Shown: positions 9,803 to 60,096 of the stretch, piece after piece
How the letters are laid out: every line of letters begins with the position of its first letter
Position numbering within the stretch: the stretch's first letter is position 1
Origin: Fimbriimonadaceae bacterium
GTDB taxonomy: Bacteria; Armatimonadota; UBA10988
DNA length: 64,000 bases
Direction of reading: 5' to 3'
Assembly: GCA_020850355.1 (NCBI GenBank)
Contig: JADZEX010000091.1
Coordinates: 35,755 to 99,754 of the forward strand
Notes under the pieces: model-generated
Told to the model about the DNA's origin: nothing
Database searches by the model: none
The model's input: the letters and a program-made list of their open reading frames with translations, nothing else
Position numbers and translations under genes: made by a program

Positions 9803-10981
9803 ATGCTCTGGAGCGCCGCCCTGGCCGGCCTCTTGCTGGCCGCGCCGCCGCAGTATCTGGTACTGAACACCGCCGCGCCACCCACGGCGCAGCTCTTTGA
9901 TCAGGTCCGCGCCGGCTGCGGAACGGGATCGCCGGCGCGCCGGATCGGGGTCGCGGCGATCTTCTCGTACTTGCATCACCCCCGCGAGCGGGTGCTGGCC
10001 GACCTGCGGGAGTTCCTGCGGTTGGCCGCGGTCACCGACACCCCGGTGGTGGTGCAGCTCGACGGCGAGAACTGGTGGGGCGGCCGACCCGACCTGTGGA
10101 ACTGGTGGGACCCGGCCCAACCGGGCTACGACCCGGCCAACCGGCAGAACGTCGAGTGGACCGGCTGGGGGCCGCAGCACGCCATCCAGATCGCCTGGCG
10201 CAACTGGGGCCGGCAGATCCGCGTCCTGCCGCCGCCGAATCTGCTCAGCCCGCGCTACCGGGCGGCTTGCCACGCCGAACTGGCGGTGCTGGTGCCAGAG
10301 ATCCTGAGCTGGTGGCGGCAACTGCCCGCCCAGCAGCAGGACCTGCTGATTGGCATCAAGGTCGGCTGGGAGAGCTCGCTGGGCGTCAACGCCTGGTACT
10401 ACCCGGACGGCAACGCCCTGCTGGCGCGGCCCGCCGCGGACGACCCGCAGACGGGGCTGCGTCCGGCGGAGCCGCCCAGCCGAGGCGTCGTGACCATCGG
10501 CTACGCCGCGGCCAGCACCGGCGGTCTGCGGCTCAGCGGCGAGCTGACCGAGGCCGACCAGGCCGCGGTGGTGCGGCGCCACCTGGCCGACCTCTGCGCC
10601 GTCCACGCGCGGCTGGGCGTGCCCCGCGACCGGCTGTTCACGCATGTCGCTGGCTGGCGCGAGGGCGAGCTGCTCTACGCTGCCGGCCTCAACCCGCACG
10701 CCTGCCCCGGCTGGAGCTTCTACCGCTACGCCAGCGACCCACGGCGCGACGCCGGCGTGCAGCAGGCCCTGACGCAGAGCGACGCCCCGGCCTGGGCCGC
10801 GGTCGAGTGGTGGCTCGGGTCCCGCGACCAGGCCGCCTGGTCGGCCGCCTTGGCCGTCACCCTGGCCGATCCCCGGTGCCGCTACCTGGCGGTCTACAAC
10901 TGGCAGAGCATCTGCGACCAGCCGGCGGTCCTGCAAGCCATCCGCGACGCTTGCCGGCCGGCCGCCGGCCCCCCGCCCTGA
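9803..10981 (+). CDS. hypothetical secreted protein, possible glycoside-hydrolase-like TIM barrel
   Basis: Track ORF with GGGAGGG upstream; N-terminal signal-like segment; Trp-rich; no confident family assignment. Confidence 0.45.
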   Translation: MLWSAALAGLLLAAPPQYLVLNTAAPPTAQLFDQVRAGCGTGSPARRIGVAAIFSYLHHPRERVLADLREFLRLAAVTDTPVVVQLDGENWWGGRPDLWNWWDPAQPGYDPANRQNVEWTGWGPQHAIQIAWRNWGRQIRVLPPPNLLSPRYRAACHAELAVLVPEILSWWRQLPAQQQDLLIGIKVGWESSLGVNAWYYPDGNALLARPAADDPQTGLRPAEPPSRGVVTIGYAAASTGGLRLSGELTEADQAAVVRRHLADLCAVHARLGVPRDRLFTHVAGWREGELLYAAGLNPHACPGWSFYRYASDPRRDAGVQQALTQSDAPAWAAVEWWLGSRDQAAWSAALAVTLADPRCRYLAVYNWQSICDQPAVLQAIRDACRPAAGPPP

Positions 10982-11040
10982 GCACCAACTCGCGAGTCCG
11001 GCGCCCGGCGACGGTGTTGCGTCGTGCGCAACAACCGCGC

Positions 11041-11070
11041 TTGACAGTGAGTTGCCGACCAGCGTACGCT
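11041..11070 (+). promoter_or_regulatory. candidate sigma70-type promoter (-35 TTGACA, -10 TACGCT, 18-bp spacer)
   Basis: Seen in sequence upstream of lipoprotein gene; preceded by inverted repeat GTTGCGtcgtgCGCAAC at 11016..11032. Confidence 0.35.
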
Positions 11071-11183
11071 TCGCAGCGACGGTTCGGTGGATGCCTTCGG
11101 GGGGCCTGAGTTGGGCTGCGCGGCAGCGCCTGGTGGTGCTGCCTGAGCTCCAGGGGAGGAGCACGCTCAGGAAGGGGCTCGTG

Positions 11184-13103
11184 ATGATCACGCGCCGACG
11201 GCTCGGCACGTTGACGGCCGGTCTGACCCTGGCACTCTTGGCGTTCGGCTGCGGCGGGGGCAGCACGCCAGTCACCCCCGGCGCTGGCGACGACTACGGC
11301 AGCGGCACCTTCAAGCGCCTGGGCAGTGCCACGCTGAAGTGGGTCGCTGGCGAACTCGGCAGCACGGCCATCGGCGGCGCCGCCGGGATTGGCATGGACG
11401 CCGCCCTCGAAGCGATCTTCGGCAACGACACCGAGCGCATCGAGGAGGGCATGGACGAGTGCAACCAGAAGCTCGACCAGGTCCTGGACCGACTCGACGC
11501 CATCTCGACCCAGCTCGACGACGCCCTCGACGCCATCGAAGAGTCCCGTGACGACATCGAGGCGCTGAACCAAGAGCTGGCCATCAAGGAACCGATCGAC
11601 ATCATCCAGTCGGACTACCGCAACCTGGAACAGCTCTCGCGCTGGGCGTCGGACGACGATGATGGCAACGACCCCACCTCCGACGACGCCGAGGAGCTGG
11701 CCGACACCATCCGCAGCACCTCGAAGCACGACATCCCCCTGCAACTCGACCGGATGCACTCCGGCATCGTCGGCGGCACTGGCAGTGGCAAGGGCGCGCT
11801 GAAGGAGTGGACCGACCAGATCCTCAACGGCATCCACAACGGCGACGACCTCTACGACGCCTACCAGACCTTGGAGAGCTACTTCGGCGAGCTGCTGACC
11901 ATCCAGACCAAAGGCATGTTGCTGATTGCCAATGCCTACGAAATGGACGACGACGACAGCCGCTACGTCGGCACGGCCCAGAGCTACCGCGACGAGGTCT
12001 TCTACCCGCACGTTGAAGAGCAGCTCGAGAAGTTCCTCCAGTTGGCGGAGAGCTTGGTGGCTGACCAGTGTCGGCCGAACCGCGGCACCTTCCTGATGCA
12101 CGGCAGCAGCGGCGAGATCTACAGCCGGATGGACTGGATCGCGGCGCAGTGCGCCGAGGAGTGGACCGCCGAGCACAACGGGCCGAAGTACCAGTACGGG
12201 CTGCACGTCCACATCTGGACCGATGACAACAAGGTCCGCCCGGCCGGTTCGGGGTTCAGTTCCGACATGCCCTGCGAGGTCTACTACGGCCCGACCGCCG
12301 ACCATGACCAGCTCGCTTTCGACGAGGCCTGGGGAGGCGCGACGGCGCGTCGCTACGCCACGCAGCGGTACGTCGACCTGATGCTGCTGGACGATGACCC
12401 CCGGGTCGCCGCCTTCGACTGGGCTGAGAAGGTGCGCGTCTACACCTACGGCCGCAACCCGTTCGAGTCGAAGACCCTGCACATCCTGCAAGACCTGGTG
12501 GCCGGCGTCGACTGGACCCGCGATGCCACCCTGCGTTACTACGACCGGGACTACAACCAGGTTGAGGCCGGGACCGCAGGCGCCCAGCCGCATTGCACGA
12601 TTGTGGTCGATTACCGGATCCAGGAAGTGCCGCTGATCTGGGACGTCAACGAGGCGGAGACCGACACCAGCGCCACCGGTTGGACCGTCGAGCGGCTAAG
12701 GCCGGGCAGTTCGGCGGTCACCGAGCACTGGTGTGGCCTGCGCGGCACACCGGCCAAGAAGTCGTCGCAGCAGACGGGGTTCTCGATGCGGTTGGACTGC
12801 CGCAACGATTGGATCACCTCGCAGTCCGACAAAGACGTGATCGCCGCCTTTGAGGGGCGCATCGCGGTCTCCCGGAACTGCCGCCAGCAAGACAACCCGC
12901 GGTTCTGGCAGAAGTACGGCTGGGCCGTCCAGGTGACTTCCAGCTCCTGGACCGGCTACGAGCAGCGGATCAACGGCATCAAGAAGAACGAGCGCTTCAA
13001 GCCGGGCCTCAAGGTCGGCATCAACACGACCGGTGGCAGCAACAACGCCACCACCTGCGAGTACGAGCTGCGCGTGCGGAAGGTGCGGCTCTATGCGCCG
13101 TGA
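11184..13103 (+). CDS. acidic secreted lipoprotein of unknown function
   Basis: ATG at 11184; lipobox LLAFGC; N-terminal helical region with repeating LDxxLDxIxxxLD pattern; unusually Asp/Glu/Lys-rich compared with neighbours. Confidence 0.55.
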   Translation: MITRRRLGTLTAGLTLALLAFGCGGGSTPVTPGAGDDYGSGTFKRLGSATLKWVAGELGSTAIGGAAGIGMDAALEAIFGNDTERIEEGMDECNQKLDQVLDRLDAISTQLDDALDAIEESRDDIEALNQELAIKEPIDIIQSDYRNLEQLSRWASDDDDGNDPTSDDAEELADTIRSTSKHDIPLQLDRMHSGIVGGTGSGKGALKEWTDQILNGIHNGDDLYDAYQTLESYFGELLTIQTKGMLLIANAYEMDDDDSRYVGTAQSYRDEVFYPHVEEQLEKFLQLAESLVADQCRPNRGTFLMHGSSGEIYSRMDWIAAQCAEEWTAEHNGPKYQYGLHVHIWTDDNKVRPAGSGFSSDMPCEVYYGPTADHDQLAFDEAWGGATARRYATQRYVDLMLLDDDPRVAAFDWAEKVRVYTYGRNPFESKTLHILQDLVAGVDWTRDATLRYYDRDYNQVEAGTAGAQPHCTIVVDYRIQEVPLIWDVNEAETDTSATGWTVERLRPGSSAVTEHWCGLRGTPAKKSSQQTGFSMRLDCRNDWITSQSDKDVIAAFEGRIAVSRNCRQQDNPRFWQKYGWAVQVTSSSWTGYEQRINGIKKNERFKPGLKVGINTTGGSNNATTCEYELRVRKVRLYAP

Positions 13104-13158
13104 CCTTCGCCGGCCGGGCGGGCGCCAACGGGGCCGATCGCCGGGTGAGGAGCGAGCC

Positions 13159-13389
13159 ATGCAACCACTACGACGTCGCTGGGGGCAGACACTTCCCGAG
13201 TACGCCCTGCTGCTCTGCCTGCTGGCAGTGGCCGCAATCGCCATTCTGGCGGTGCTCGGCCGCAAGAACCGCGACACCTACACCAGCACCAATGACAGCC
13301 TGGTGACCACCAACGCCGATGTCAAGAGCGGCAAAGGTGGTGGTGGCGGTGGTGGCGATGGACCGGCGCCGGTGGGCGGACACTGGTAG
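13159..13389 (+). CDS. Flp/Fap-type pilin-like small protein
   Basis: ATG at 13159 with GAGGAG upstream; short basic leader then G-x4-EY motif (WGQTLPEYALLL) and hydrophobic helix; Gly-rich C-terminus. Confidence 0.45.
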   Translation: MQPLRRRWGQTLPEYALLLCLLAVAAIAILAVLGRKNRDTYTSTNDSLVTTNADVKSGKGGGGGGGDGPAPVGGHW

Positions 13390-13416
13390 CGAGTGGGCTG
13401 ACGAACGGGGGTCTCG

Positions 13417-15423
13417 ATGACCACGCGACGAAGCGGATACCTGCTGACCGGGTTGGTGCTGCTGACCTTGCTGGCGGCCTGCGGCGGCGGGCTGGGGCTG
13501 TTCCAGGAGCCGTCCCCGGGCAACGTGCCGCCCGACCGCCTGGCCCTGATCAGCGGCGGCGGCGGGCAGTACCTGGTGCCGGTCCGGATCGGCAACCAGA
13601 CCTTCCGCCTGCTGCTCGACACCGGCTTCCAAGCGGTGTTGGTGTTCGCAGACCTGGTGCGGGCCGACAACACCGAGGTCGTCCGGACCGGCGAACGGGC
13701 CAACCTGCAGTTCGGCTCCGGGCCGCGCCGCGGCGAAATCGCCAGTGCCCCGATCGCCGTCGGCCAGCGCAGCGGCACCGCGCGGCTGCTGCTGGTGGAC
13801 AACCCCACCTCCAGTGATGATCCCTCCCTGACCTGGAAGGGCGCCGACGGGATCCTCGGCCTGCGCTTCCAGCCGGGCGCGACCGACCTCGGTAGCGCGC
13901 GCCTGGATCCGCCGCTGCTGGCCCTGGCGCCACGGATCCGGTCGATGGAGTTCGACCTGCAGCCCGGCGGCGCGACCTTGGTGCTCGGTGGCACGCCGGT
14001 CCTCGGCTCGGCCAACCCGGCCGCCGTGTTCACCGCGCAGACCACCACCGAGCTCCGCAACGACCGGATCCGCGAGAACTACGCCGACCTCGAGGTGCCC
14101 TTCCAGATCAGCTCCAGCCGCGGCGTCGCCAACGCGGAGGACCTCGACATCCTGCTCGACACCGGCGCCGCCAGCCTGCTGGTGCTCGACGAACCGCTGG
14201 CCGCGCAACTGGGCTACGACCGCGGCTCGCAGAGCTGGACCATCCCGGCCGACGAGCTGCTCGACCTGCGACTGCTGGGTCTGGCCGGTCAGATGCCGAT
14301 CACGCCGCCCTTCCAGGTCCGCGATGTGCGCGTGGCCGACCTCGGCAACACCACCTTCGACGCGGTCCTCGGGCTCGACCGGTGGCAGCAGTATGTCGTG
14401 GCCTTCGACTTCATCGACTTCTCGTTGGGCGGACCCGAGGGTACCTTCCGGTTCCTGCGCCACGACCAGATCGGCGCCGCCACCGGGGGGTGCCAGCGGC
14501 CTGACCGCCACTTCGTGGCCCTGCGCGGGCTCAACTCCTCGGGTGAGGATGGCTCGCCGGCCCTCAGCGCCGACGGTCGGGTGATCGTCTTCGAGACCGA
14601 TCGCCACGGCGGACGCGGTCTGCGGGACATCGCCTGCTACGACCGACAGGCCCAGGCATTGGTGGACATCGGGTCGATCAACTCGGAAAGCAACGACGAG
14701 ACTCCCGCGGTCTCGGGCGACGGCAACCTGATCGCCTTCACCTCCGACCGGCCGGGCGGCCAGGGCGACTTCGACATCTACCTCTTCGACGTCGCCGCCG
14801 GGTCGTTCATCGATCTGCCCGGCCTAAACACCACGGCCTTGGAGCGCTCGCCCGGCCTCAGCGCCGACGGACGCTTCGTCTCGTTCCGCTCCGAACGCGA
14901 CGCCTCAGACTCGCCGTCGGACGTCTACCTCTACGACCGCCAGACCGCCGCGCTGGTGGCGACGCCTGGACTCAACAGCGCCGCCGACGAGTTCACCAGC
15001 GCCCTTAGCCGGCACGGCGAGCGGCTGGTTTTCGAGGCGCTCAACCGGCCCGGCGACGCCGGTGGGGTCGACGTACACCTGTACGACGTCACCGCGGGCG
15101 CCCTGGTCCCGCTCTCGGCCGCGGTCAACAGCAACCGCTTCGACGCCTTCGTCAACCTCAGTGCCAACGGGCGCTGGATGACCTGCTTCAGCGAGCGGGC
15201 CGCAGCCACGCCCGGCGCTGCCGGTCGGGACATCCTGCTGGTGGACCTTGGCCGCAACGGCACTGATGGCCGGCCGGGAGTGCTGGTGGACCTGCCGGGC
15301 CTGAACTCGGCCTACGAGGAGTCGTCCTCGTCGCTGAACGACGATGGCACGCTGATCGCCTTCGCGTCGAGCCGTTGCGGCGGCTCGGGTGGCTTGGACA
15401 TCTACCTCTACCAGCGCGACTGA
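13417..15423 (+). CDS. lipoprotein with retropepsin-like aspartyl protease domain fused to TolB-like PD40 beta-propeller repeats
   Basis: Track ORF; lipobox LLAAC; two DTG motifs (LLLDTGFQAV, ILLDTGAASLLVLD); repeated PD40-like units (SPALSADGRVIVFETDR, TPAVSGDGNLIAFTSDR, SPGLSADGRFVSFRSER). Confidence 0.65.
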   Translation: MTTRRSGYLLTGLVLLTLLAACGGGLGLFQEPSPGNVPPDRLALISGGGGQYLVPVRIGNQTFRLLLDTGFQAVLVFADLVRADNTEVVRTGERANLQFGSGPRRGEIASAPIAVGQRSGTARLLLVDNPTSSDDPSLTWKGADGILGLRFQPGATDLGSARLDPPLLALAPRIRSMEFDLQPGGATLVLGGTPVLGSANPAAVFTAQTTTELRNDRIRENYADLEVPFQISSSRGVANAEDLDILLDTGAASLLVLDEPLAAQLGYDRGSQSWTIPADELLDLRLLGLAGQMPITPPFQVRDVRVADLGNTTFDAVLGLDRWQQYVVAFDFIDFSLGGPEGTFRFLRHDQIGAATGGCQRPDRHFVALRGLNSSGEDGSPALSADGRVIVFETDRHGGRGLRDIACYDRQAQALVDIGSINSESNDETPAVSGDGNLIAFTSDRPGGQGDFDIYLFDVAAGSFIDLPGLNTTALERSPGLSADGRFVSFRSERDASDSPSDVYLYDRQTAALVATPGLNSAADEFTSALSRHGERLVFEALNRPGDAGGVDVHLYDVTAGALVPLSAAVNSNRFDAFVNLSANGRWMTCFSERAAATPGAAGRDILLVDLGRNGTDGRPGVLVDLPGLNSAYEESSSSLNDDGTLIAFASSRCGGSGGLDIYLYQRD

Positions 15424-15427
15424 CGCC

Positions 15428-15850
15428 TCAGCGCAGGTGCTTGCGGAAGCTGTGGCTCATCCGCTCGTAGCCGAGATGCTGCTCGTAGAAGCGGTGCGCG
15501 GCGAGGCGCTGCACGCCCGAAGTGAGGGCGATCTGCTGGCAGCCTGCGCCCCGCCCGAGCTCCTCGACCGCGCCCAGCAGCAGGCGGCCGTAGCCCTGCG
15601 ACCGCGCCGTCGCGGTGGTCACCAGGTCGTACACATAGACGTGCCGGCCGTGGTAGAGGTTGGTCAGAATGACGAACCCCGCGACCGCCACAATCTGCCC
15701 GGCCACCCGTACCACCAGTTGGCGGTAGCCTTCGGCGCGCATCGCCTCCAGGAGCGCCAGGTAGGCACTCAGGTCGAGCTGCGTGCGCAACTCGGCGAGC
15801 ACCGCCCAGGCCTCCTGGAACTCGCTGGCGGTGGTCAACTCCGCGACCAC
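15428..15850 (-). CDS. GNAT-family N-acetyltransferase
   Basis: Motif RSQGYGRLLLGAVEEL; start taken at GTG 15850 because longer starts overlap the upstream gene (alternative TTG at 15871 overlaps its stop). Confidence 0.6.
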   Translation of the reverse strand: MVAELTTASEFQEAWAVLAELRTQLDLSAYLALLEAMRAEGYRQLVVRVAGQIVAVAGFVILTNLYHGRHVYVYDLVTTATARSQGYGRLLLGAVEELGRGAGCQQIALTSGVQRLAAHRFYEQHLGYERMSHSFRKHLR

Positions 15851-40169: not shown

Positions 40170-43100
40170 ATGCGGTGGGAGTTCCAGTTACTCGGGGGCC
40201 TCGCGGCGCGCTGCGGCGAGCGGGAGGTGGCGGAGTTCCGGAGCAGCAAGGGGCGCGGCGTCCTGGCTCGGTTGCTGCTGCAAACCGGCGAGCGCCTGCG
40301 GCGGGCGGTGGTGGCCGCGGAGTTCTGGCCCGAGTCCGAAGCTCGCAGCGCCCTCAACTCGCTGACCACCGAACTCTCGAAACTCCGGCAGGCGCTGCAC
40401 TGCGACGCGGTTGAAGACCGGCGGCTGCTGCCGCCGGGGCAGCGCGAGATCTGGATCGACGCGGGCCTGGTCCGCACCGACCTGCAGGCGTTTGAGCAGA
40501 CGGTGGCCGAGTTCGACGCGTTGGGACGGCGGGGCGAGCCCGCCGAGCTGACCTTGGCACGGTTGCGGTTGTGCGGCGGAGAGCTGCTGCCAGAGCTCGA
40601 GGGTACCTGGCTGACCAGCCGCCGGACCGCTGTGCGGCAGGCCTGGCTGCGGCTGGCGGCCGGCGCGGCCGAAGGTCTGCGGAGCGCCGGACGGATGTCC
40701 GCCGCGGCGGCGTTGGCGCACCAGGCGGTGCAGTACTACCCGCTCGACGAACCGGCGCTGCGCTTCGCGATGCGGTTGCTCGCCGATCTGGGTGAGACGG
40801 CTGCCGCGTTGCGACAGTACGAAGCCCTGCGAGCCCGGCTGCACACGGGCTATGGCCTGGCTCCGGCGGCCGAGACCAGCGACCTGGCAGCCGACCTCGG
40901 CGCCGACCTGGCAGCCGGAGCCGACCAGCGCGCCGAGGAGCTGGCCGCGGCGGCGACTCAGCAGATCGCGCACGGCCGACTCCGAGCGGCCGAGCTGGGG
41001 CTCCGGCGGGCTCTCGTCACGGGTCTCCGAGGCCCGGCGGCAGCACAGGTACAGCGGCAACTGCGTGCCGTGTCGCGGGCGCTCCCGCCGGTGGTCTGGG
41101 AGCGCGCCACCGGGCGAACCGTGGTGGACGGTGTGGTGCGTCGCGACGGCGCGGTGCTGCTGTGCCACCCGGCCGGGAGGTGGTCGTGCTGGCGGACCGG
41201 GCAGGCAACACCAGTGGTCGAGGGCCAGTGTGGCGACGGCCTGGTCCTGGGGTCCTGGCTGGGCCGGTCCGCCGAGCTGGTGTTGGCGGCGGCCACCGGT
41301 GAGTTGCACTGGCAGTCGTTGGCGGCGTCGCGGCCCCGGGCCACGGCGCATGTCCCAGGGCCACCGCTGGCGCTGACCACCTCGCCGGACCGGCGCTGGG
41401 CGGCAGTCGGCCTGGAGCGCCACGGCGTAGTGCTGTGGGACCTGGCGCACGACGAGCTGTACGAACTGCCGGCGATCACACGAGCAGACTGCCTCGCCTT
41501 TGCGCCGAACGGGGCCCGACTGGCGGCCGGAGCCCGCAGCGGTGAGCTGACCGTCTGGGAGCTGGCGACCGGGCAGGCGGTGTGGCAGACCCAGCAGCCG
41601 GGCGCTGTGCGCGGGCTGGCCTGGTCGCCAGACGGGTTGTTGCTGGCCACGGCGGGCGGCGATCATCGGGCGCGGATCTGGCAGTGGGACGGCCGTGGTG
41701 GGGCCATGCAGGAGCTGCCACATGGGGACCGGGCAGTGCACGCCGTGGCCTGGCTGGCGCGCGGCGAGCGACTGGTCAGCGTAGCCGGCGACGGTCGTCT
41801 GCGGAGCTGGCCTGGGGCCACCGCGGCGGGCCAGGCGACGGTGGTCAGCCTGGGCGGCGACCTGACGCGGCTCTGGGGCCATCCAGATGGGCACCACGTG
41901 TTGGCGTTGACCGCGCATGGTGTCGCCCACCTGGTGGACCTGGCCGCGGAGCCGGCGGCGGACCTCGAGGCCGTGGGAGAGGGGCTCGCGGCAGTCGGCT
42001 TTGTCGGCACGCGGGGCGATCTGCTGTTGGTTGAGGCGGCCGGCAGTCTCCGACAACTCGACCTGATGGCCGCCGGACCGGACCGGGCGCTGCTGCATGC
42101 ATCCGGCTGCCACGTGGCGCGCGCCGTATGGTCGCCGGACGAGCAACGCCTGGTGACCGCCGGCACCGACGGCGGCGTGCGAGTCTGGAGCGCCGCCGGT
42201 CGACTGGAGCAGAGTTGGCAACTGGCCGAAGTGGTGCGCGAGGTGGTCTGGGACCAGTCCGGGGGCCTGCTGGCGCTGACCGCTGAGGGAGAGCTGGTGG
42301 CGCTGGCCCGGGACGGCCTGGCCCGCCGTGACCACCTGCCTGGAGCGCCGATGCGGCACCTCGAGCTGCGTCCGGCCGAAGGCCTGTTGCTGGCCGCCAG
42401 TGGCACTGCGGTGCGCTGGTGGAGCTGGCCGACCTTTCGCCTCCAAGGTGGCTTCGAGGTCGCCGGCCACTGCCGCGCGGTCGCCCTGTCGCCAGACGCC
42501 CGGGTGGTCTACGTGGCGGAACTGGGTGGCCGCGTGACCGCCCGGCGCCGGACGGGCGAGCTGCTGTGGGAGCGGGCGCTGGACCGGGCGCCGTGGCGCC
42601 TGGTGGTGACCGCGTCAGGTCTGCTCGTGGCCGGCACCTCGCCGGCGGTGCTGCTGGCAGCGGCCGACGGCGAACCGGTCGGGGCGGGCTGGCCGCATCC
42701 GGGCGAGTGCCACCAGGTCGCCCTTGACCCAGCCCAGAAACGTGTGGCGCTGACGACCAGCGCAGGGCCGGTCTTGGTGGTCGATCCGGCCCGGCCACAG
42801 CAGGCAGCGGTGGTGCTGGAACGCCGCCGATGGGGTCTGTGGAGCGAGTTCACGGCAGCCGGCACGCTGCTGGCCGCCGGCGACGATGGCGAGGTCCGGG
42901 AGTTCTGTACTGCCAGTGGCCGGCTCTTGGTCCCGCCCCGCCCGGTTCCGGCGCTGGTCCCCTTTCTGAGCCAGCGCCAGGCCGACGGCCAGATCACCGC
43001 CACCTGCGGCGATGGTCGCGTCTACTTCTGGCACGCTGCCGCCCACGGCCAGGCGGCGCCCGCGGCGGCGCCTGCGGCGACTCCCGTCGCACGCGCCGTT

Positions 43101-43796
43101 TGGCACGAGCGGCAGGCTGCCAACTGCGCCCAGGCCGGGTTGCCGGCTGGCGCGTGGTGGCATCTGCAGCGCGCGCTGCGAGCGCAGCCCACGGAGGCCT
43201 GGAACTGCTGGCAAGCCGCCCTGGCCGCCTGGGAGGTGGGCCGCCCGGATCGGACCGCAGCCCTGCTGCGCCGCGCCAGTGCCCTCACCAGCGATCCGCG
43301 CCCCGCGGCTGATGCGCTGCTGTTGGCTGCCTGGCGCGACGGTGCTGGGGCGGTCGCTCCCGCGGCCGAGCGGCTGCTCGCAACCGTGACAGCGCTGGGC
43401 CGCAGTCCGCTCGCCTGGCAGGCGCTCCGCCGCTGGCTGGTGATTGCCGAGTGGGCTGACCTGGTACGAGCACTGCCGGCAGACCTGCTGGAGAGCGCAC
43501 CGCACCTCGCTTCGGCGGCCCGGTTGGAGGTGCTGGCGGCCTGGCACCTGCGCTGTCAGCGGAATGTCCTGGCTGCCGCCACCATCGACCGGTGCTGGTC
43601 TGCCGCCCGCCATCAGCGCTCGCTCTGGGCGTCCGCGGTACGGGCCTTGGCGCTACAGCGCCTGGGCCGCTGCGAAGGTGGGCTAGCTGCCGAGCATGCC
43701 CGGGCCCTGGCCGTTGCGACCGCCAGCGATCCCGTCTGGCCGCACCGCATCGAGGCTGCCTGTTGGCAGCGCGAGCTGACGCTGGCCGGCGGCTGA
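40170..43796 (+). CDS. SARP-family (OmpR-type wHTH plus BTAD) regulator fused to WD40 repeats and C-terminal TPR-like region
   Basis: Track ORF, 1208 aa; GGGAGGGG upstream; N-terminal MRWEFQLLGGLAA...ALRFAMRLLADLGETAAALRQYEALRARL (BTAD); WD40 units (LATAGGDHRARIWQW, VTAGTDGGVRVWSA); no P-loop seen. Confidence 0.65.
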   Translation: MRWEFQLLGGLAARCGEREVAEFRSSKGRGVLARLLLQTGERLRRAVVAAEFWPESEARSALNSLTTELSKLRQALHCDAVEDRRLLPPGQREIWIDAGLVRTDLQAFEQTVAEFDALGRRGEPAELTLARLRLCGGELLPELEGTWLTSRRTAVRQAWLRLAAGAAEGLRSAGRMSAAAALAHQAVQYYPLDEPALRFAMRLLADLGETAAALRQYEALRARLHTGYGLAPAAETSDLAADLGADLAAGADQRAEELAAAATQQIAHGRLRAAELGLRRALVTGLRGPAAAQVQRQLRAVSRALPPVVWERATGRTVVDGVVRRDGAVLLCHPAGRWSCWRTGQATPVVEGQCGDGLVLGSWLGRSAELVLAAATGELHWQSLAASRPRATAHVPGPPLALTTSPDRRWAAVGLERHGVVLWDLAHDELYELPAITRADCLAFAPNGARLAAGARSGELTVWELATGQAVWQTQQPGAVRGLAWSPDGLLLATAGGDHRARIWQWDGRGGAMQELPHGDRAVHAVAWLARGERLVSVAGDGRLRSWPGATAAGQATVVSLGGDLTRLWGHPDGHHVLALTAHGVAHLVDLAAEPAADLEAVGEGLAAVGFVGTRGDLLLVEAAGSLRQLDLMAAGPDRALLHASGCHVARAVWSPDEQRLVTAGTDGGVRVWSAAGRLEQSWQLAEVVREVVWDQSGGLLALTAEGELVALARDGLARRDHLPGAPMRHLELRPAEGLLLAASGTAVRWWSWPTFRLQGGFEVAGHCRAVALSPDARVVYVAELGGRVTARRRTGELLWERALDRAPWRLVVTASGLLVAGTSPAVLLAAADGEPVGAGWPHPGECHQVALDPAQKRVALTTSAGPVLVVDPARPQQAAVVLERRRWGLWSEFTAAGTLLAAGDDGEVREFCTASGRLLVPPRPVPALVPFLSQRQADGQITATCGDGRVYFWHAAAHGQAAPAAAPAATPVARAVWHERQAANCAQAGLPAGAWWHLQRALRAQPTEAWNCWQAALAAWEVGRPDRTAALLRRASALTSDPRPAADALLLAAWRDGAGAVAPAAERLLATVTALGRSPLAWQALRRWLVIAEWADLVRALPADLLESAPHLASAARLEVLAAWHLRCQRNVLAAATIDRCWSAARHQRSLWASAVRALALQRLGRCEGGLAAEHARALAVATASDPVWPHRIEAACWQRELTLAGG

Positions 43797-51673: not shown

Positions 51674-51769
51674 TTCGGACAACCGCCTAAGTCGTCCGCA
51701 AGATGAGTGGTGAGCCGATCCATGCGGCTACCGGGAGCGCGCGCCTCCCGGATTGGGAGGTCTCCGGCG

Positions 51770-53962
51770 ATGCGTTCGGTCCGCGCCACAACCTGGGCAG
51801 TGCTGGCGGTGCTCGCGGCCGGAGTCCGGGTCCACGGCCAGGGCGCCAGTCGGCCGGTCTACTTCGTGCGCGACGTCGCGCCGATCTTCGACCGCGAGTC
51901 GTGCAGCTCGTCGCCCTGCCACGGCAAGTTCGGCGGCGGCCAGGGCCGGCTGCAGCTCTCCCTGATGACGCTCTCCCCGGAGGCCGACTTCGCTGGGCTG
52001 GAGCCGCTGATCGATCTCCAGAACCCCGCCAACAGCGTGCTGTTGCAGAAGCCCAGCGGCAAGTCGCCACACGCTGGTGGGCGGCGCTTCCGGGAGAATG
52101 CCAAGGAGTACCAGACGATTCTGCGCTGGATCCAGGAAGGCTGCCGCAACCCGACTCGCGAGCCGCTGCCGGTGCGGCTGCGGGTGACTCCGGAGCGCTT
52201 CAACTTCACGCCCGACAAGAACCAGGGCCGGATTCAGGTCACCGCCGAGTTCGCCGATGGGTCGGCCGAGGACGTCACGGACCGCACCCGGTTCATCAGC
52301 CCGGACGAGGAACAGGTCGAAGTGACTCCGGCGGGCTACGTCACGATGCAGCGCTGGGGCCTGACCAACGTCGTCTGCCGCTACGTTGGGCTGACCAAGG
52401 CGGTGTTCATCTCGCTGCCGCGCCCCAAGACCGCTGCCGACCCGGCCCCGCCGAAGGTGGCCGCGGGCAACCTGGTCGACGCGCTGGTCCACAAGAACCT
52501 CGAGTGGCTGAACATCAACCCGGCTCCGCGCTGCGACGACTACACCTTCCTGCGGCGGATCTACCTTGACCTGGTCGGGGCCCTGCCCGATCCGGCGACG
52601 ATTCGGGCGTTTGTGAAGGACCCCGATCCGAGCAAGCGGGCGAAGCTGGTGGACCAGTTGCTGGACGACCCGCGGTTCGTCGCGATGCGCACGCTGCGGC
52701 TCGGGGACATGCTGCGGATCAACCCGCGCAAGCTGGCCAATGGTCCGTTGCAGGCCCGCGCGGCGATGATCTTCGACGACTGGCTGCGCCGCAGCGTGCG
52801 CGACAACAAGCCGTTCAACAAGCTGACCCACGAGCTGGTCAACGCCCGCGGCTCGACGATGCTCAACGGCCCGGCCAACTTCTACCGCGTCGAGCGCTCG
52901 CCAGAGAACCGCGCCGAGACGATCGGGCAGGCTTTTCTGGGCGTGCGCCTGAGCTGCGCACGCTGCCATAACCATCCCTTCGACCGCTGGAACACCGACG
53001 ACTACTGGGAGTTCGCGGCGTTTCTGGCAAAGATCCGCGAGCGCGGCGCCGAGCTGTTTGACGACCGCGAGCTGTACGTCGACAACAAGGCCCAGCTTCG
53101 CAACCAGGCGGTGACCAGCAAGAAGAAGGGCCAGGTGGCGGTGCCGACCTTCCTCGGCGGACCGAGCCTGCCGCAGGAGCAGTTCCAGGGCGACTACCTG
53201 CAGGCGCTGGCCGACTGGATCACCAACGACGACAACCCGTACTACGGCAAGGCCACCGTGAACCGCGTCTGGTCGCACTTCCTGGGCCGCGGGGTGGTGA
53301 CGCCGGTCGACGACATTCGCGAGACCAGCGTCGCCGCGGTGCCGGCGTTGTTGACGCTGTTGGCGCAGGAGTTCCGCCGCACCGGCTACGACACGAAGCA
53401 GTTGATCCGCCTGATCGTGACCAGCGAGACCTACCAGCGGTCCAGCAGCAGCGACACCACCAACGAGCTGGACAACCGCTTCTTCAGCCACTTCCAGCCG
53501 AAGCAGATGCTGGCGCAAGTGTTGCTGGACGCCATCAACACGGCCTGCGGCACCTGGGACCAGTACGCCAGCTTCCCACGAGGGACCACCGCGGTGGAGC
53601 TGCCGCTGATGGTCAACAACGACTTCCTGGACCGCTTCGGACGCAGCAACCGGGAGTTTCTGGCGACGCTCGACCCGCACGCCGAGCCGACCATGCCGCA
53701 GACGCTGCATCTGATCAACTCCGGGTACATCAACGGCAAGATCACCTCGCGCGAGGGAACCGTGGCGACCCTCGAACCGCAGCTTCGGGACGACCGCGTG
53801 CTGGTCGAAGAGCTCTACCTGCGGACCCTCTGCCGCCCGCCGAGCGCTGGCGAGCTGGAGCAGGTCCTGGGATACCTTAAGAAGATCCCAAACCGCCGCG
53901 AGGCGTTCGAGGATCTCCTGTGGGCGCTGATCAGCTCGCGGGAGTTTGTGTTCATCAGTTAG
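51770..53962 (+). CDS. DUF1549/DUF1553 domain protein (Planctomycete PSD1-type), secreted
   Basis: ATG at 51770 after GGGAGG; signal peptide; motif SCARCHNHPFDRW typical of DUF1549; N-terminal Cys-rich segment. Confidence 0.7.
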   Translation: MRSVRATTWAVLAVLAAGVRVHGQGASRPVYFVRDVAPIFDRESCSSSPCHGKFGGGQGRLQLSLMTLSPEADFAGLEPLIDLQNPANSVLLQKPSGKSPHAGGRRFRENAKEYQTILRWIQEGCRNPTREPLPVRLRVTPERFNFTPDKNQGRIQVTAEFADGSAEDVTDRTRFISPDEEQVEVTPAGYVTMQRWGLTNVVCRYVGLTKAVFISLPRPKTAADPAPPKVAAGNLVDALVHKNLEWLNINPAPRCDDYTFLRRIYLDLVGALPDPATIRAFVKDPDPSKRAKLVDQLLDDPRFVAMRTLRLGDMLRINPRKLANGPLQARAAMIFDDWLRRSVRDNKPFNKLTHELVNARGSTMLNGPANFYRVERSPENRAETIGQAFLGVRLSCARCHNHPFDRWNTDDYWEFAAFLAKIRERGAELFDDRELYVDNKAQLRNQAVTSKKKGQVAVPTFLGGPSLPQEQFQGDYLQALADWITNDDNPYYGKATVNRVWSHFLGRGVVTPVDDIRETSVAAVPALLTLLAQEFRRTGYDTKQLIRLIVTSETYQRSSSSDTTNELDNRFFSHFQPKQMLAQVLLDAINTACGTWDQYASFPRGTTAVELPLMVNNDFLDRFGRSNREFLATLDPHAEPTMPQTLHLINSGYINGKITSREGTVATLEPQLRDDRVLVEELYLRTLCRPPSAGELEQVLGYLKKIPNRREAFEDLLWALISSREFVFIS

Positions 53963-53984
53963 GCCCGACCAAGGGAGCCCCACA

Positions 53985-55334
53985 ATGCCCATCGACGAGA
54001 CCGGGATCCATACCGACTACTGCGACGGCCACGCCCGGCGCGATGTGCTGAAGGCTGGCGTGCTGGGGATGTTCGGCCTCAGCCTGAGCGGCTTCCTGCA
54101 GGCCCAGGCGGCGCAGGCCCAGACCGCTGCGGCGGGCGAGGCCGCGGCTGCCACCGCGCCGCGCGGCAAAGCCGACGCCTGCATCTTGCTGTTCCTGGCC
54201 GGCGGCCCGTCGCACCTCGATAGCTGGGACCCCAAGCCGAGCGCGCCCGAGGAAGTGCGCGGCAGCTTCAAGACCGTCGCCACGAAGCTGCCGGGGGTGC
54301 AGTTTGGGGAGCACATGACGCGCTGCGCGCAGATCGCCGGGGACCTCACGGTGATCCGCTCGATGACCTCGAAGGAGGCCGACCACGAGCGCGGGACGCA
54401 CTACCTGATGACCGGCTATCCGCCGCTCCCCGGCTTCGGGGTGCCGGCGGTGGGCAGTGTCGTCTCGAAGCTGCTGCCGTCCCGCAGCGTGCTGCCGCCG
54501 TACATCGCGGTGCCCAGCCCGGTGCAGTACGGCGGCGCTGGCTTCCTGGGCGCCGCGCTGGACCCCTTCAGCCCTGGCGGCGACCCCAGCAATCCGGGCT
54601 TCCGGGTGCGCGACCTGGCGCCCGAAGGCGGGCTGAGCATCGAACGGGTGGACCGCCGACAGTCCTTGCGGCAGGCGGTTGATGCCAGCTTCGCGCGGCA
54701 CGAGAAGTCGTCCGACGCGGCGCGAGCGGTCGATGAGTTCTACAAGTCGGCCTACGGGCTGATTTCCTCCAGCGAGGCCCGTGCAGCCTTCGACGTCGCC
54801 AAAGAGCCAGACGCCATGAAGGACCTCTATGGGCGCAACAGCCTGGGGCAGTCGTGCCTCCTGGCGCGCCGCCTGGTGCAGGCGGGGGTGCGCTTCGTGA
54901 CGGTCCAGAACGGCGGCTGGGACACCCACAACAACGGCTTCCAGGCGCTTGCCGGCAAGCTGCCGCCGCTCGACCAGGCGGTCGCGGCGCTGGTCACCGA
55001 TCTGAAGCAGCAGGGCATGTTGGAGCGGACGATGGTGCTGGTGATGGGCGAGTTCGGGCGCACCCCGCGGGTCAACCCGCAGGGCGGCCGCGACCACTAC
55101 CCGCAGTGCTTCAGCGTGGTGGCGGCCGGCGGTGGCTGGCAGCGCGGGGCGGTGGTCGGCTCGTCCGACGCGACCGGCGCCAATGTTGCCGAGCGCGGCG
55201 TCAAGCCGGAGGACCTCACGGCGACCGTCTACACGCTGCTGGGAATCGATCCCGACAGCGACCTCCACTCGCCCGAGGGCATCCGAATCGTGCTCAGCCG
55301 CGGCGGCGTCGCCGTGCGGGAGGCGCTGGCGTGA
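53985..55334 (+). CDS. DUF1501 domain protein (sulfatase-like fold, Tat signal; PSD2-type)
   Basis: ATG at 53985 after AGGGAG; twin-arginine-like RRDVLKAGVLG; DUF1501-like motifs (DSWDPK, TVQNGGWDTH). Confidence 0.75.
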   Translation: MPIDETGIHTDYCDGHARRDVLKAGVLGMFGLSLSGFLQAQAAQAQTAAAGEAAAATAPRGKADACILLFLAGGPSHLDSWDPKPSAPEEVRGSFKTVATKLPGVQFGEHMTRCAQIAGDLTVIRSMTSKEADHERGTHYLMTGYPPLPGFGVPAVGSVVSKLLPSRSVLPPYIAVPSPVQYGGAGFLGAALDPFSPGGDPSNPGFRVRDLAPEGGLSIERVDRRQSLRQAVDASFARHEKSSDAARAVDEFYKSAYGLISSSEARAAFDVAKEPDAMKDLYGRNSLGQSCLLARRLVQAGVRFVTVQNGGWDTHNNGFQALAGKLPPLDQAVAALVTDLKQQGMLERTMVLVMGEFGRTPRVNPQGGRDHYPQCFSVVAAGGGWQRGAVVGSSDATGANVAERGVKPEDLTATVYTLLGIDPDSDLHSPEGIRIVLSRGGVAVREALA

Positions 55335-59653: not shown

Positions 59654-60096
59654 GGGAGGTCCTCCCAGGGATCGATCAGGGCCAGGGCCAGGTGCGCCAG
59701 CAGCCAGGCCTCGAGGGCGTCGTCGGAGGGCAGGGGCGGCGCCGGCTCGGCGGTGATCTCGGCCGCGGTCAGCTCCTCGGCGGTCGGGACTGGCACGACG
59801 GCCAGCGGATCGGAGTCGGGCCAGGGCAGCAGCGTCGCCACGAGGTCAGCCTGCTCCGGCCAGGCCTGGTCTGGTTCGAGGACCAGCCAGTAGCTATCGG
59901 CTGCGGCTAGCGCCGCGGCATCCGGGTCGCGCAGCACCGCCAGGGCGTCGTTCAGAGCCTGCTGCCGGGCCTCGGCGAAGGGCCCTCGGCGGGCCGCCTT
60001 GTAGCACCGCGCAAACGCCGCCTCGACCTCGGCGAGGCTGGCCCGACGGGCCACGTTGAGGCGCGCCGCGGGGCTGTCGAGGGGTTCAGGGAGCAT
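59650..60096 (-). CDS. small hypothetical protein, degenerate J-domain-like N-terminus (no HPD)
   Basis: ATG at 60096 preceded by GGAGGTG; overlaps the upstream TPR gene by 11 nt and the downstream GrpE-like gene by 4 nt. Confidence 0.35.
   Translation of the reverse strand: MLPEPLDSPAARLNVARRASLAEVEAAFARCYKAARRGPFAEARQQALNDALAVLRDPDAAALAAADSYWLVLEPDQAWPEQADLVATLLPWPDSDPLAVVPVPTAEELTAAEITAEPAPPLPSDDALEAWLLAHLALALIDPWEDLP

What the first reader, a model, noticed from the sequence alone, without database searches (positions are those of the whole stretch)
11041..15423. Three-gene secreted module: acidic helical lipoprotein, Flp-like pilin, aspartyl-protease/PD40-propeller lipoprotein
Downstream of a candidate promoter (TTGACA -35) lie an acidic 639-aa lipoprotein with a coiled-coil-like N-terminus, a 76-aa protein with a Flp-pilin-like G-x4-EY motif, and a lipoprotein carrying two DTG aspartyl-protease motifs fused to TolB-like PD40 repeats. 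No tad/cpa assembly genes or TadV-type membrane prepilin peptidase are nearby. The soluble retropepsin-like protease next to a pilin-like substrate suggests a non-canonical processing or adhesion module, or a secreted effector with its maturation protease.
Basis: partly seen in the sequence, partly recalled or inferred. Interest (0 to 1): 0.6.

Follow-up and report, generated by a model that had tools for sequence, protein, structure and literature searches.

The report
Tailed Flp pilin beside pepsin-propeller lipoprotein
In an uncultured Armatimonadota bacterium, a small pilus-subunit gene with an unusual tail sits between genes for an unknown lipoprotein and a lipoprotein that joins a pepsin-type protease to a TolB-type propeller; the trio recurs in relatives, its function is unknown, and the protease is very unlikely to be the enzyme that trims the pilin leader.

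Summary
Three same-strand genes, with gaps of 55 and 27 bp, lie at 11184-15423 in a Fimbriimonadaceae MAG.

- **ORF1:** a 639-aa acidic lipoprotein of an uncharacterised family (138 clusters, no Pfam or PDB relative).
- **ORF2:** a 76-aa Flp-type pilin. It has the G/xxxxEY motif and is 62% identical to flp genes in a real Tad locus. It also carries an extra 23-residue Gly-rich tail ending in His-Trp.

The trio recurs in four loci with different flanking genes. The pilin sits between the two large genes or downstream of them, and always ends in HW. None of about 130 flp genes outside this context ends that way.

ORF3 homologs also occur without a pilin. They then follow an ORF1-like, Hcp-like or leukocidin-like lipoprotein, and once a TadE-TadG-TadE cluster.

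No tad genes lie in the 64 kb window.

[quoted passage not shown] Any ORF3-pilin contact would therefore involve the external tail.

Function remains inferred.

The parts
11041..11046 (+). TTGACA hexamer proposed as a -35 element; weak candidate only
   Evidence: The sequence is present, but the promoter scan found no site passing its criteria in 10700-15700. The -10 candidate TACGCT matches 3 of 6 positions.
11184..13103 (+). ORF1: 639-aa acidic lipoprotein of an uncharacterised family, helical N-terminal half and beta-rich C-terminal half
   Evidence: lipobox Cys23, pI 4.6. No Pfam or NCBIfam family. 138 representative clusters at E<=1e-3. No PDB relative beyond coiled-coil noise. Family members lie directly upstream of ORF3 homologs in 5 loci.
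11184..11252 (+). ORF1 signal peptide with lipobox (LLAFG/C23)
   Evidence: PROSITE-type lipobox pattern match. The Cys is conserved in close homologs.
13147..13152 (+). GAGGAG Shine-Dalgarno-like sequence, 6 nt upstream of the ORF2 ATG
   Evidence: Read directly from the sequence.
13159..13389 (+). ORF2: 76-aa Flp-type prepilin paralogue
   Evidence: 62% identical over residues 5-53 to flp genes of a genuine Tad locus, L013. Orthologs score 25.1 and 16.9 bits on Pfam Flp_Fap. Four orthologs are aligned or translated.
13183..13203 (+). Flp processing motif G9/Q-T-L-P-E14-Y15
   Evidence: E14 and Y15 are invariant in the orthologs.
13318..13386 (+). C-terminal extension (residues 54-76), Gly-rich and ending in His-Trp; absent from canonical Flp pilins
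   Evidence: All 4 ORF3-linked orthologs end in (G/K)HW. None of about 130 flp genes in 80 other loci does.
13417..15423 (+). ORF3: 668-aa lipoprotein made of a pepsin-family domain and a TolB-type propeller
13417..13482 (+). ORF3 signal peptide with lipobox (LLAA/C22)
   Evidence: The consensus LAGCGGG is conserved among homologs.
13534..14466 (+). Bilobed pepsin-like (A1-type) aspartic peptidase domain, residues about 40-350
13618..13626 (+). N-lobe catalytic motif D68-T-G
   Evidence: D68 is invariant in 18 homologs. It aligns with the Asp32 motif of aspergillopepsin and penicillopepsin.
14158..14166 (+). C-lobe catalytic motif D248-T-G(-A)
   Evidence: D248 is conserved in 17 of 18 homologs and T249 is invariant.
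14512..15420 (+). Six-bladed TolB/PD40-type beta-propeller, residues about 366-668

Best explanation
This is a conserved, lineage-restricted cell-envelope module of Fimbriimonadaceae, not a pilin-leader processing system.

- ORF2 is a genuine Flp-type pilin paralogue. Its leader is most likely removed, and the pilin assembled, by a canonical Tad system (A24 peptidase TadV) encoded elsewhere in the genome. It differs from ordinary Flp pilins by a flexible Gly-rich C-terminal tail of about 23 residues ending in His-Trp. That tail would lie outside the cytoplasmic membrane.
- ORF3 is an exported lipoprotein. It most likely works as an extracytoplasmic pepsin-type endopeptidase whose TolB-type propeller selects or holds the protein it acts on.
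- ORF1 is its usual co-encoded lipoprotein partner or substrate.

The most likely working relationship is that ORF3 acts on, or docks with, its co-encoded neighbours outside the cytoplasm: ORF1, and in this clade the external tail of the pilin.

Shown: the identities, folds, conserved catalytic residues, lipoprotein signals and synteny.
Inferred: enzymatic activity, localisation, and any ORF3-ORF1 or ORF3-pilin contact.
For: Pilin identity:
- ORF2 has the G/xxxxEY motif followed by a hydrophobic helix.
- It is 62% identical to two flp genes in L013. Those genes sit next to Peptidase_A24, RcpC/CpaB and a TadZ-like gene.
- Its orthologs hit Flp_Fap at E 1.6e-5 and 0.0056.

ORF3:
- The model is confident (pLDDT 86.7).
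- The domain profile finds A1 peptidases in the PDB at E down to 1.8e-8. The alignment matches DTG, the flap region and DGILGL.
- D68 is invariant and D248 is present in 17 of 18 homologs.
- The lipobox is conserved.

Module:
- The gaps are 55 and 27 bp, and no terminator-like site lies on the + strand.
- The trio recurs in L006, L004/L005 and L093. The flanks are unrelated and the pilin position differs.
- The HW tail occurs in 4 of 4 linked pilins and in none of about 130 unlinked ones.
- An ORF1-family gene lies directly upstream of an ORF3 homolog in 5 distinct loci.

Second link to Tad: in L007 an ORF3 homolog lies in a same-strand run after TadE-TadG-TadE and an RcpC-like gene.
Against: - No experiment, expression data or complex prediction supports any contact among the three proteins.
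- The four trio loci are orthologous, so the linkage could partly be inherited synteny.
- ORF3 homologs exist without a nearby flp (L001/2, L003/9, L007, L008, L094). Two ORF1-family members have no ORF3 neighbour (L095, L097).
- ORF2 itself does not reach any Pfam or NCBIfam pilin model.
- The flap Tyr75 equivalent is Phe in this clade. Pfam Asp (PF00026) is sub-threshold for ORF3 (15.5 against 19.9 bits).
- The rest of the source genome could not be searched, so a Tad system in this organism is assumed from relatives.
- The ORF1 structure could not be modelled (pLDDT 35).
Confidence: 0.5

Rival explanations
1. No functional link to the pilin. ORF2 is simply an orphan Flp gene that travels with its neighbours. 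ORF1 and ORF3 form an independent envelope or surface pair, for example for protein scavenging or surface remodelling in a polymer-degrading heterotroph.
For: - ORF3 homologs occur without flp in 5 of 9 contexts.
- Neighbouring genes are often glycoside hydrolases: GH5 in the window, GH20 and GH42 in relatives.
- In other phyla the pepsin-propeller module sits at the N-terminus of giant proteins with PA14, Laminin_G and RCC1 domains, which look like adhesins.
- The four trio loci are orthologous.
Against: - The trio is kept while the flanks are completely replaced, and the pilin has moved within the module.
- The HW tail is exclusive to the linked pilins.
- There is an independent adjacency of an ORF3 homolog to TadE-TadG-TadE in L007.
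Confidence: 0.28
2. Tad-pilus-coupled cargo module. ORF2 is a dedicated minor or adapter Flp pilin whose HW tail docks into the TolB-type propeller. The pepsin-type protease (and ORF1) is thereby displayed on, or delivered by, a Tad pilus. This would be analogous to satellite 'Tip' clusters that carry their own Flp adapter.
For: - Precedent: the 59-aa Flp KilO, encoded in the satellite tip3 cluster, works only with that Tip (PMC12075869).
- The HW tail is exclusive to linked pilins.
- TolB propellers are known to bind short disordered Gly-rich peptides, the colicin TolB boxes (PMC2821528, abstract).
- L007 links an ORF3 homolog to a TadE-TadG-TadE cluster.
- Alternative upstream partners are Hcp-like and leukocidin-like lipoproteins, which look like effectors.
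Against: - ORF1 and ORF3 have lipoprotein signals, not class III prepilin signals. They cannot be pilus subunits like Tip proteins.
- The similarity of the tail to a TolB box is loose and untested.
- No complex prediction could be run.
- Predation or toxin activity in this lineage is unknown.
Confidence: 0.15
3. One reading: ORF3 is a soluble, non-canonical prepilin peptidase that cleaves ORF2 at G/QTLPEY in place of TadV.
For: The two genes are adjacent, both enzymes use aspartate catalysis, and no A24 peptidase lies in the 64 kb window.
Against: - The cleavage site faces the cytoplasm, and prepilin peptidases are polytopic membrane enzymes acting there (PMC10191384).
- ORF3 has a conserved lipoprotein export signal and no membrane-spanning domain.
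- Related genomes carry tadV next to near-identical flp genes (L013).
- Most ORF3 homologs have no pilin neighbour.
Confidence: 0.03
4. ORF2 is not a pilin but a small secreted or membrane bacteriocin-like peptide, matured or exported with the help of its neighbours.
For: There is a weak Pfam match to YxzE-like putative bacteriocin (19.5 bits, E 0.002, against a cut-off of 40). More distant ORF3 loci carry a methyltransferase and an ABC exporter with a cNMP-binding domain.
Against: - The match is far below threshold and disappears when the tail is removed.
- Homology to genuine flp genes in a Tad locus is much stronger.
- The ABC and methyltransferase genes are absent from all four loci that carry the small gene.
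Confidence: 0.03

Closest known systems
Flp/Fap pilins of Tad (type IVc) pili (Pfam PF04964)
   Same: - Short prepilin with a basic leader ending in Gly.
- Glu-Tyr at +5/+6, followed by a hydrophobic helix of about 20 residues.
- 62% identical to flp genes sitting beside tadV, rcpC and tadZ in L013.
   Different: - It is encoded away from any tad gene in 64 kb.
- It carries a 23-residue Gly-rich extension ending in His-Trp.
- ORF2 itself does not reach the Pfam model, and its orthologs are sub-threshold.
KilO/KilK adapter Flp minor pilins in satellite Tip clusters of Myxococcus xanthus (PMC12075869)
   Same: A small Flp gene is encoded in a satellite locus, away from the core machinery, next to the accessory proteins it serves.
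   Different: The neighbours here are lipoproteins (ORF1, ORF3), not TadE/TadF/TadG-type minor pilins. No functional data exist. Only L007 has a TadE-TadG-TadE cluster near an ORF3 homolog.
Peptidase family A1 (pepsin), including the bacterial homologs (shewasins; Rawlings and Bateman 2009, PMC2761423)
   Same: - Single-chain bilobed fold.
[quoted passage not shown]
- Significant profile matches to fungal and Plasmodium A1 enzymes.
   Different: - The described bacterial homologs lack signal peptides and are predicted to be intracellular (PMC2761423 abstract). ORF3 is a lipoprotein.
- ORF3 is fused to a propeller.
- The flap Tyr is Phe.
- Pfam PF00026 is sub-threshold for ORF3 itself.
TolB (Tol-Pal system)
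   Different: - TIGR02800 scores 41.8 bits against a cut-off of 343.
- The N-terminal TolA-binding domain is replaced by a protease.
- The gene is not in a tol-pal operon.
- The protein is lipidated.
Propeller-containing peptidases (tricorn, prolyl oligopeptidase, DPP-IV); comparison from general knowledge
   Same: A beta-propeller is fused to a peptidase domain. Faint precomputed Tricorn_N and Tricorn_2nd hits occur in homologs.
   Different: The catalytic domain there is a serine peptidase, not an aspartic one. No pepsin-propeller fusion turned up in the literature searches run here, none of which targeted that architecture.
Bacterial retropepsin-like proteases (APRc of Rickettsia, PMC4140852; secreted retropepsin-like enzymes of P. 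aeruginosa, PMC11957051)
   Same: Aspartic catalysis with a DTG motif, in the envelope or secreted. The ORF3 N-lobe hits Pfam Asp_protease_2 (31 bits).
   Different: Those enzymes are single-lobe and must dimerise. ORF3 has two different lobes in one chain, and its whole domain superposes on pepsins.

Membership tests
Flp/Fap pilin (Tad pilus subunit) | Short prepilin (about 50-80 aa) with leader-Gly/xxxxEY followed by a hydrophobic helix | tested here: met
   76 aa, with G9/QTLPEY15 followed by ALLLCLLAVAAIAILAVLG. E14 and Y15 are invariant in the aligned orthologs.
Flp/Fap pilin (Tad pilus subunit) | Reaches the curated Pfam Flp_Fap (PF04964) score | tested here: not met
   ORF2 gives no hit even at E<=10. 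Its orthologs score 25.1 and 16.9 bits against a cut-off of 32.2.
Flp/Fap pilin (Tad pilus subunit) | Homology to pilin genes located in bona fide tad loci | tested here: met
   62% identity over residues 5-53 to two flp genes in L013. These are followed by Peptidase_A24, RcpC/CpaB and a TadZ-like gene.
Flp/Fap pilin (Tad pilus subunit) | Encoded with, or dependent on, Tad assembly genes and TadV | tested here: inconclusive
   No tad gene lies in the 64 kb window. The rest of the genome could not be searched. Processing cannot be tested with these tools.
Peptidase family A1 (pepsin) | Two lobes in one chain, each with Asp-Thr/Ser-Gly | tested here: met
   D68-T-G and D248-T-G. D68 is invariant and D248 is present in 17 of 18 homologs.
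Peptidase family A1 (pepsin) | Hydrophobic-hydrophobic-Gly motif forming a psi-loop in each lobe (PMC2761423) | tested here: met
   DGILGL (G145 and G148 invariant) and AVLGL (A316, V317 and G319 invariant). DGILGL aligns with DGLLGL of aspergillopepsin.
Peptidase family A1 (pepsin) | Bilobed pepsin fold | tested here: met
Peptidase family A1 (pepsin) | Significant sequence similarity to A1 peptidases or the Pfam Asp (PF00026) model | tested here: inconclusive
   ORF3 alone scores 15.5 bits on PF00026 against a cut-off of 19.9. The family profile hits aspergillopepsin at E 1.8e-8 and nearly all its other PDB matches are A1 enzymes. The L011 homolog passes PF00026 at 31.1 bits.
Peptidase family A1 (pepsin) | Flap tyrosine (Tyr75 in pepsin numbering) | tested here: not met
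   The aligned position reads F-G-S-G in ORF3 and most Armatimonadota homologs. It is Tyr in the more distant ones.
Retropepsin-like (A2 / Asp_protease_2) homodimeric protease | A single lobe with one DTG, active as a homodimer | tested here: not met
   ORF3 has two non-identical lobes in one chain, and the whole domain superposes on pepsins. The Asp_protease_2 hit covers only residues 54-85.
Type IV prepilin peptidase (A24; TadV/CpaA/PilD) | Polytopic membrane protein with catalytic Asp residues at the cytoplasmic face; Peptidase_A24 domain | tested here: not met
   ORF3 gives no A24 hit. The model shows a beta-rich soluble fold with a single N-terminal signal helix and a lipobox. The topology requirement is taken from PMC10191384.
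TolB (Tol-Pal) | Six-bladed PD40 propeller | tested here: met
TolB (Tol-Pal) | Equivalog score, N-terminal TolA-binding domain and tol-pal operon context | tested here: not met
   TIGR02800 scores 41.8 bits against 343.15. The N-terminal domain is a protease. The neighbours are not tol or pal genes.
Bacterial lipoprotein (SPase II substrate) | Signal peptide ending in a lipobox with an invariant Cys | tested here: met
   The PROSITE-type pattern matches ORF1 (Cys23) and ORF3 (Cys22). The Cys is conserved in homologs. Lipidation itself cannot be tested here.

The most novel reading that the evidence does not exclude
The His-Trp-terminated Gly-rich tail of the Flp paralogue is a docking peptide for the TolB-type propeller of ORF3. 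If so, a Tad pilus (or a membrane-resident pilin pool) would display or deliver a pepsin-type protease and its ORF1 partner. That would be a new way to add function to Tad pili: lipoprotein cargo recruited through a pilin tail, rather than minor-pilin tips.
Probability: 0.12. Interest if true: 0.75.

Novelty: new variant of a known kind. Interest (0 to 1): 0.45.

Why it matters
- **A new protease architecture.** Pepsin-family enzymes are rare in bacteria, and the described ones are predicted to be cytoplasmic (PMC2761423). This one is an exported, lipid-anchored pepsin homolog fused to a TolB-type propeller, with conserved catalytic residues. The same module is repeated inside giant surface proteins in other phyla. 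That combination was not found in the literature searched here.
- **A possible new way to customise Tad pili.** The protease recurs next to a distinctive tailed Flp pilin and, in one relative, next to TadE-TadG-TadE. This hints that Tad pili in Armatimonadota may be coupled to envelope enzymes. The idea fits recent evidence that Tad pili are customised by satellite gene clusters (PMC12075869).
- **Current value.** Without experiments, this is a well-defined, testable candidate rather than a demonstrated system.

Tried and rejected
- **ORF1 structure.** AlphaFold with the only admissible alignment (4 sequences) gave pLDDT 35, so no fold search was attempted.
- **ORF1 sequence searches.** A 66-sequence profile found only coiled-coil noise in the PDB. 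Pfam scans of its members gave no shared family. NCBIfam gave nothing.
- **ORF2 word-based homolog search.** It found only ORF2 itself.
- **ORF2 against Pfam.** Even at E<=10 there was no Flp_Fap hit. The YxzE match (19.5 bits against a cut-off of 40) vanished when the tail was removed, so it was treated as noise.
- **Exact-match contig look-up for ORF3 and P0009.** Not on record.
- **afdb50 fold search.** The library was unavailable.
- **Promoter scan and Rfam.** Neither found anything in the region.
- **dN/dS-style count on the two closest flp orthologs.** It gave 5 synonymous and 6 conservative non-synonymous codon changes, too few to be informative.
- **ORF1 as a relative of the alternative partners.** The leukocidin-like (L094) and Hcp-like proteins showed no significant similarity to ORF1.
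- **Retropepsin reading of ORF3.** Rejected in favour of the pepsin family.

Full report
**Source and gene calls**

The window has 70% GC. Exact matches to NCBI proteins named 'MAG... [Fimbriimonadaceae bacterium]', with locus tags IT204_24690 and IT204_24695, place it in Armatimonadota.

- ORF1, 11184-13103, 639 aa
- ORF2, 13159-13389, 76 aa
- ORF3, 13417-15423, 668 aa

ORF1 and ORF3 have third-position GC of 0.91, typical of genes here. ORF2 reaches 0.83-0.90 in its core, in the correct frame, and is preceded by GAGGAG six bases upstream of its ATG. The gaps are 55 and 27 bp. The next gene downstream, a GNAT acetyltransferase, is on the opposite strand. No terminator-like site lies on the + strand inside the block.

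The proposed promoter is weak. TTGACA is present, but the -10 candidate matches only 3 of 6 positions, and the scan reports no promoter.

**ORF2 is a Flp-type pilin paralogue with an unusual tail**

ORF2 has a basic leader ending in Gly9, then Q-T-L-P-E-Y and a hydrophobic helix.

ORF2 itself reaches no Pfam or NCBIfam model. Three other lines of evidence identify it as a pilin:
1. Its orthologs next to ORF3 homologs hit Flp_Fap at E 1.6e-5 (25.1 bits) and 0.0056 (16.9 bits). Both are below the 32.2-bit cut-off.
2. A pattern scan of metagenomes found more than 271 relatives. These are typical 55-60-aa flp genes, often in tandem pairs.
3. The best locus, L013, is 62% identical over residues 5-53. 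Two flp genes there are followed by a TMEM260-like glycosyltransferase, Peptidase_A24 (TadV-type), RcpC/CpaB and a response-regulator/ParA-type TadZ-like gene. That is a genuine Tad locus.

ORF2 differs from these pilins by about 23 extra residues, Gly-rich and ending in His-Trp. The four ORF3-linked pilins (window, L006, L004/L005, L093) all end in (G/K)HW. None of about 130 flp genes in the 80 other loci does. None of those loci encodes an ORF1 or ORF3 relative.

**ORF3 is a lipoprotein with a pepsin-family domain and a TolB-type propeller**

The AlphaFold model, built on an 18-sequence alignment, is confident (pLDDT 86.7, pTM 0.83).

A profile of the N-terminal domain finds aspergillopepsin at E 1.8e-8, penicillopepsin at 5.3e-7 and endothiapepsin at 6.8e-6. 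Nearly all other matches at E<=1 are A1 enzymes. The alignment pairs LLLDTG with FDTG, FGSG with the YGDGS flap, and DGILGL with DGLLGL.

Conservation among 18 homologs:
- D68 is invariant.
- D248 is kept in 17 of 18.
- Both hydrophobic-hydrophobic-Gly motifs are invariant.
- The lipobox Cys is conserved.

This makes ORF3 a pepsin homolog rather than a retropepsin. It departs from the family in three ways. The flap Tyr is Phe in this clade. Pfam PF00026 is sub-threshold for ORF3 itself, although a homolog passes it. And unlike the bacterial pepsin homologs described so far, which lack signal peptides (PMC2761423), it is an exported lipoprotein fused to a propeller.

**ORF1 is an uncharacterised lipoprotein**

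ORF1 has a lipobox with Cys23 and a pI of 4.6. Its very acidic N-terminal half is predicted helical and its C-terminal half beta-rich.

Exhaustive phmmer found 138 representative clusters at E<=1e-3, mostly matching residues about 45-325. The family has no Pfam domain in common and no PDB relative. The structure prediction failed (pLDDT 35).

**Genomic contexts**

Nine distinct contexts of ORF3 homologs were read:

| Locus | Arrangement |
|---|---|
| window, L006 | ORF1 - flp - ORF3 |
| L004/L005, L093 | ORF1 - ORF3 - flp (L093 is cut upstream) |
| L001/L002 | divergent ORF1-family gene - ORF3, no flp |
| L008 | ORF1-family gene (profile E 1e-42) - ORF3 |
| L003/L009, L007 | Hcp-like lipoprotein (PF05638, 70.7 bits) - ORF3 - methyltransferase - ABC exporter with cNMP-binding domain |
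| L094 | leukocidin-like lipoprotein (PF07968, 25.9 bits) - ORF3 |
| L010-L012 (Planctomycetota, Hyphomicrobiales and Thiotrichales MAGs) | module tandemly repeated at the start of giant ORFs |

- In L007, the Hcp-like gene and the ORF3 homolog follow TadE, TadG, TadE and an RcpC-like gene in one same-strand run.
- The giant ORFs in L010-L012 are 1555, >2489 and >4128 aa. They carry PA14, Laminin_G and RCC1 domains. Their second module copy has lost its DTG motifs.
- The flanks of the four trio loci are unrelated, so the trio moves as a unit.
- Two ORF1-family genes looked up independently are not followed by an ORF3 homolog.

**Absence of Tad genes**

Pfam scans of the window's large ORFs found no Tad, Cpa or A24 gene. 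phmmer with TadE, TadG, RcpC, A24 and TadZ queries against all six-frame ORFs of at least 60 aa also found none.

**Interpretation**

[quoted passage not shown] ORF3 is an exported lipoprotein with no membrane domain, so it cannot reach Gly9/Gln10. Close relatives encode tadV beside near-identical pilins.

What remains is a conserved envelope module. A pepsin-type endopeptidase with a protein-binding propeller is nearly always preceded by another lipoprotein gene. In one clade it is joined by a pilin whose distinguishing feature, the HW tail, lies on the same side of the membrane as ORF3.

I consider it most likely (about 0.5) that ORF3 acts on or docks with these co-encoded proteins outside the cytoplasm.

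The main rival (about 0.28) is that the pilin is a passenger and ORF1 and ORF3 do something unrelated to pili.

A more novel reading (about 0.12-0.15) is that the tail is a docking peptide for the propeller, coupling lipoprotein cargo to a Tad pilus. Two precedents make this conceivable:
- Satellite Tip clusters in Myxococcus carry their own Flp adapter, KilO (PMC12075869).
- TolB propellers bind short disordered peptides, the colicin TolB boxes (PMC2821528).

None of these functional statements is shown here. All are inferences from sequence, fold and synteny.

**Verdict**

The finding is a new variant of known kinds: a tailed Flp pilin, and an exported pepsin homolog fused to a TolB-type propeller, with an uncharacterised partner. 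Interest is moderate (0.45). The architecture and the linkage are new and testable, but no mechanism has been demonstrated.

Noticed in passing
L012:9503-21886 (+), L011:1-7467 (+), L010:3282-7946 (+): In Thiotrichales, Hyphomicrobiales and Planctomycetota MAGs the pepsin-propeller module is tandemly duplicated at the N-terminus of giant ORFs (>4128, >2489 and 1555 aa). The second copy lacks the DTG motifs. PA14, Laminin_G and many RCC1 repeats follow. The L011 copy passes Pfam Asp (31.1 bits) and also hits DUF3443.
   Followed up: partly
L007:1235-13106 (+): A same-strand run with very short gaps: TadE, TadG-like, TadE, RcpC-like, a 693-aa protein, an Hcp-like lipoprotein, an ORF3 homolog, a methyltransferase and an ABC exporter with a cNMP-binding domain. 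This is a second, independent genomic link between the ORF3 family and Tad components.
   Followed up: partly
L003:7307-7957 and L007:7282-7956 (+): These are lipoproteins with a strong T6SS Hcp domain (PF05638, 70.7 bits) and a lipobox. They lie directly upstream of ORF3 homologs, outside any visible T6SS locus.
   Followed up: no
L094:955-2673 (+): A 572-aa lipoprotein with a leukocidin/hemolysin pore-forming toxin domain (PF07968, 25.9 bits, above the cut-off) lies directly upstream of an ORF3 homolog. This suggests that the variable upstream partner may be an effector or toxin.
   Followed up: partly
L013:8149-10287 (+): In a canonical Armatimonadota-like Tad locus, a TMEM260-like O-mannosyltransferase gene lies between the two flp genes and tadV. 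It may glycosylate the pilin.
   Followed up: no
window:17210-19252 (+): A 680-aa protein combines a NERD nuclease-related domain (34.7 bits) with PD40 propeller repeats (75 bits), an unusual pairing. It lies 2 kb downstream of the module.
   Followed up: no
window:39398-40099 (-) and 51707-55334 (+): A DUF1559 (prepilin-like, 'planctomycete-type') protein and a PSCyt2/PSD1 plus DUF1501 gene pair. These families are best known from Planctomycetota but here sit in an Armatimonadota MAG.
   Followed up: no
window:60000-64000: GC rises to 77-79%, with long overlapping ORFs on both strands (for example 60086-63493 on the - strand, 1135 aa, with only a weak TPR hit). Gene calls here are uncertain.
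   Followed up: no
window:36553-39363 (+) and 40170-43796 (+): A 936-aa protein with two FGE-sulfatase (formylglycine-generating enzyme-like) stretches, and a 1208-aa BTAD-WD40 protein. Both are large signalling or modification proteins unrelated to the finding.
   Followed up: no
A1 alignment, C-termini of P0006, P0007 and P0009: The ORF3 homologs of the Hcp-linked subgroup carry short C-terminal extensions ending in Arg-Trp (SRW, SRW, RRW). This is reminiscent of the His-Trp end of the linked pilins. The significance is unknown and it may be chance.
   Followed up: no
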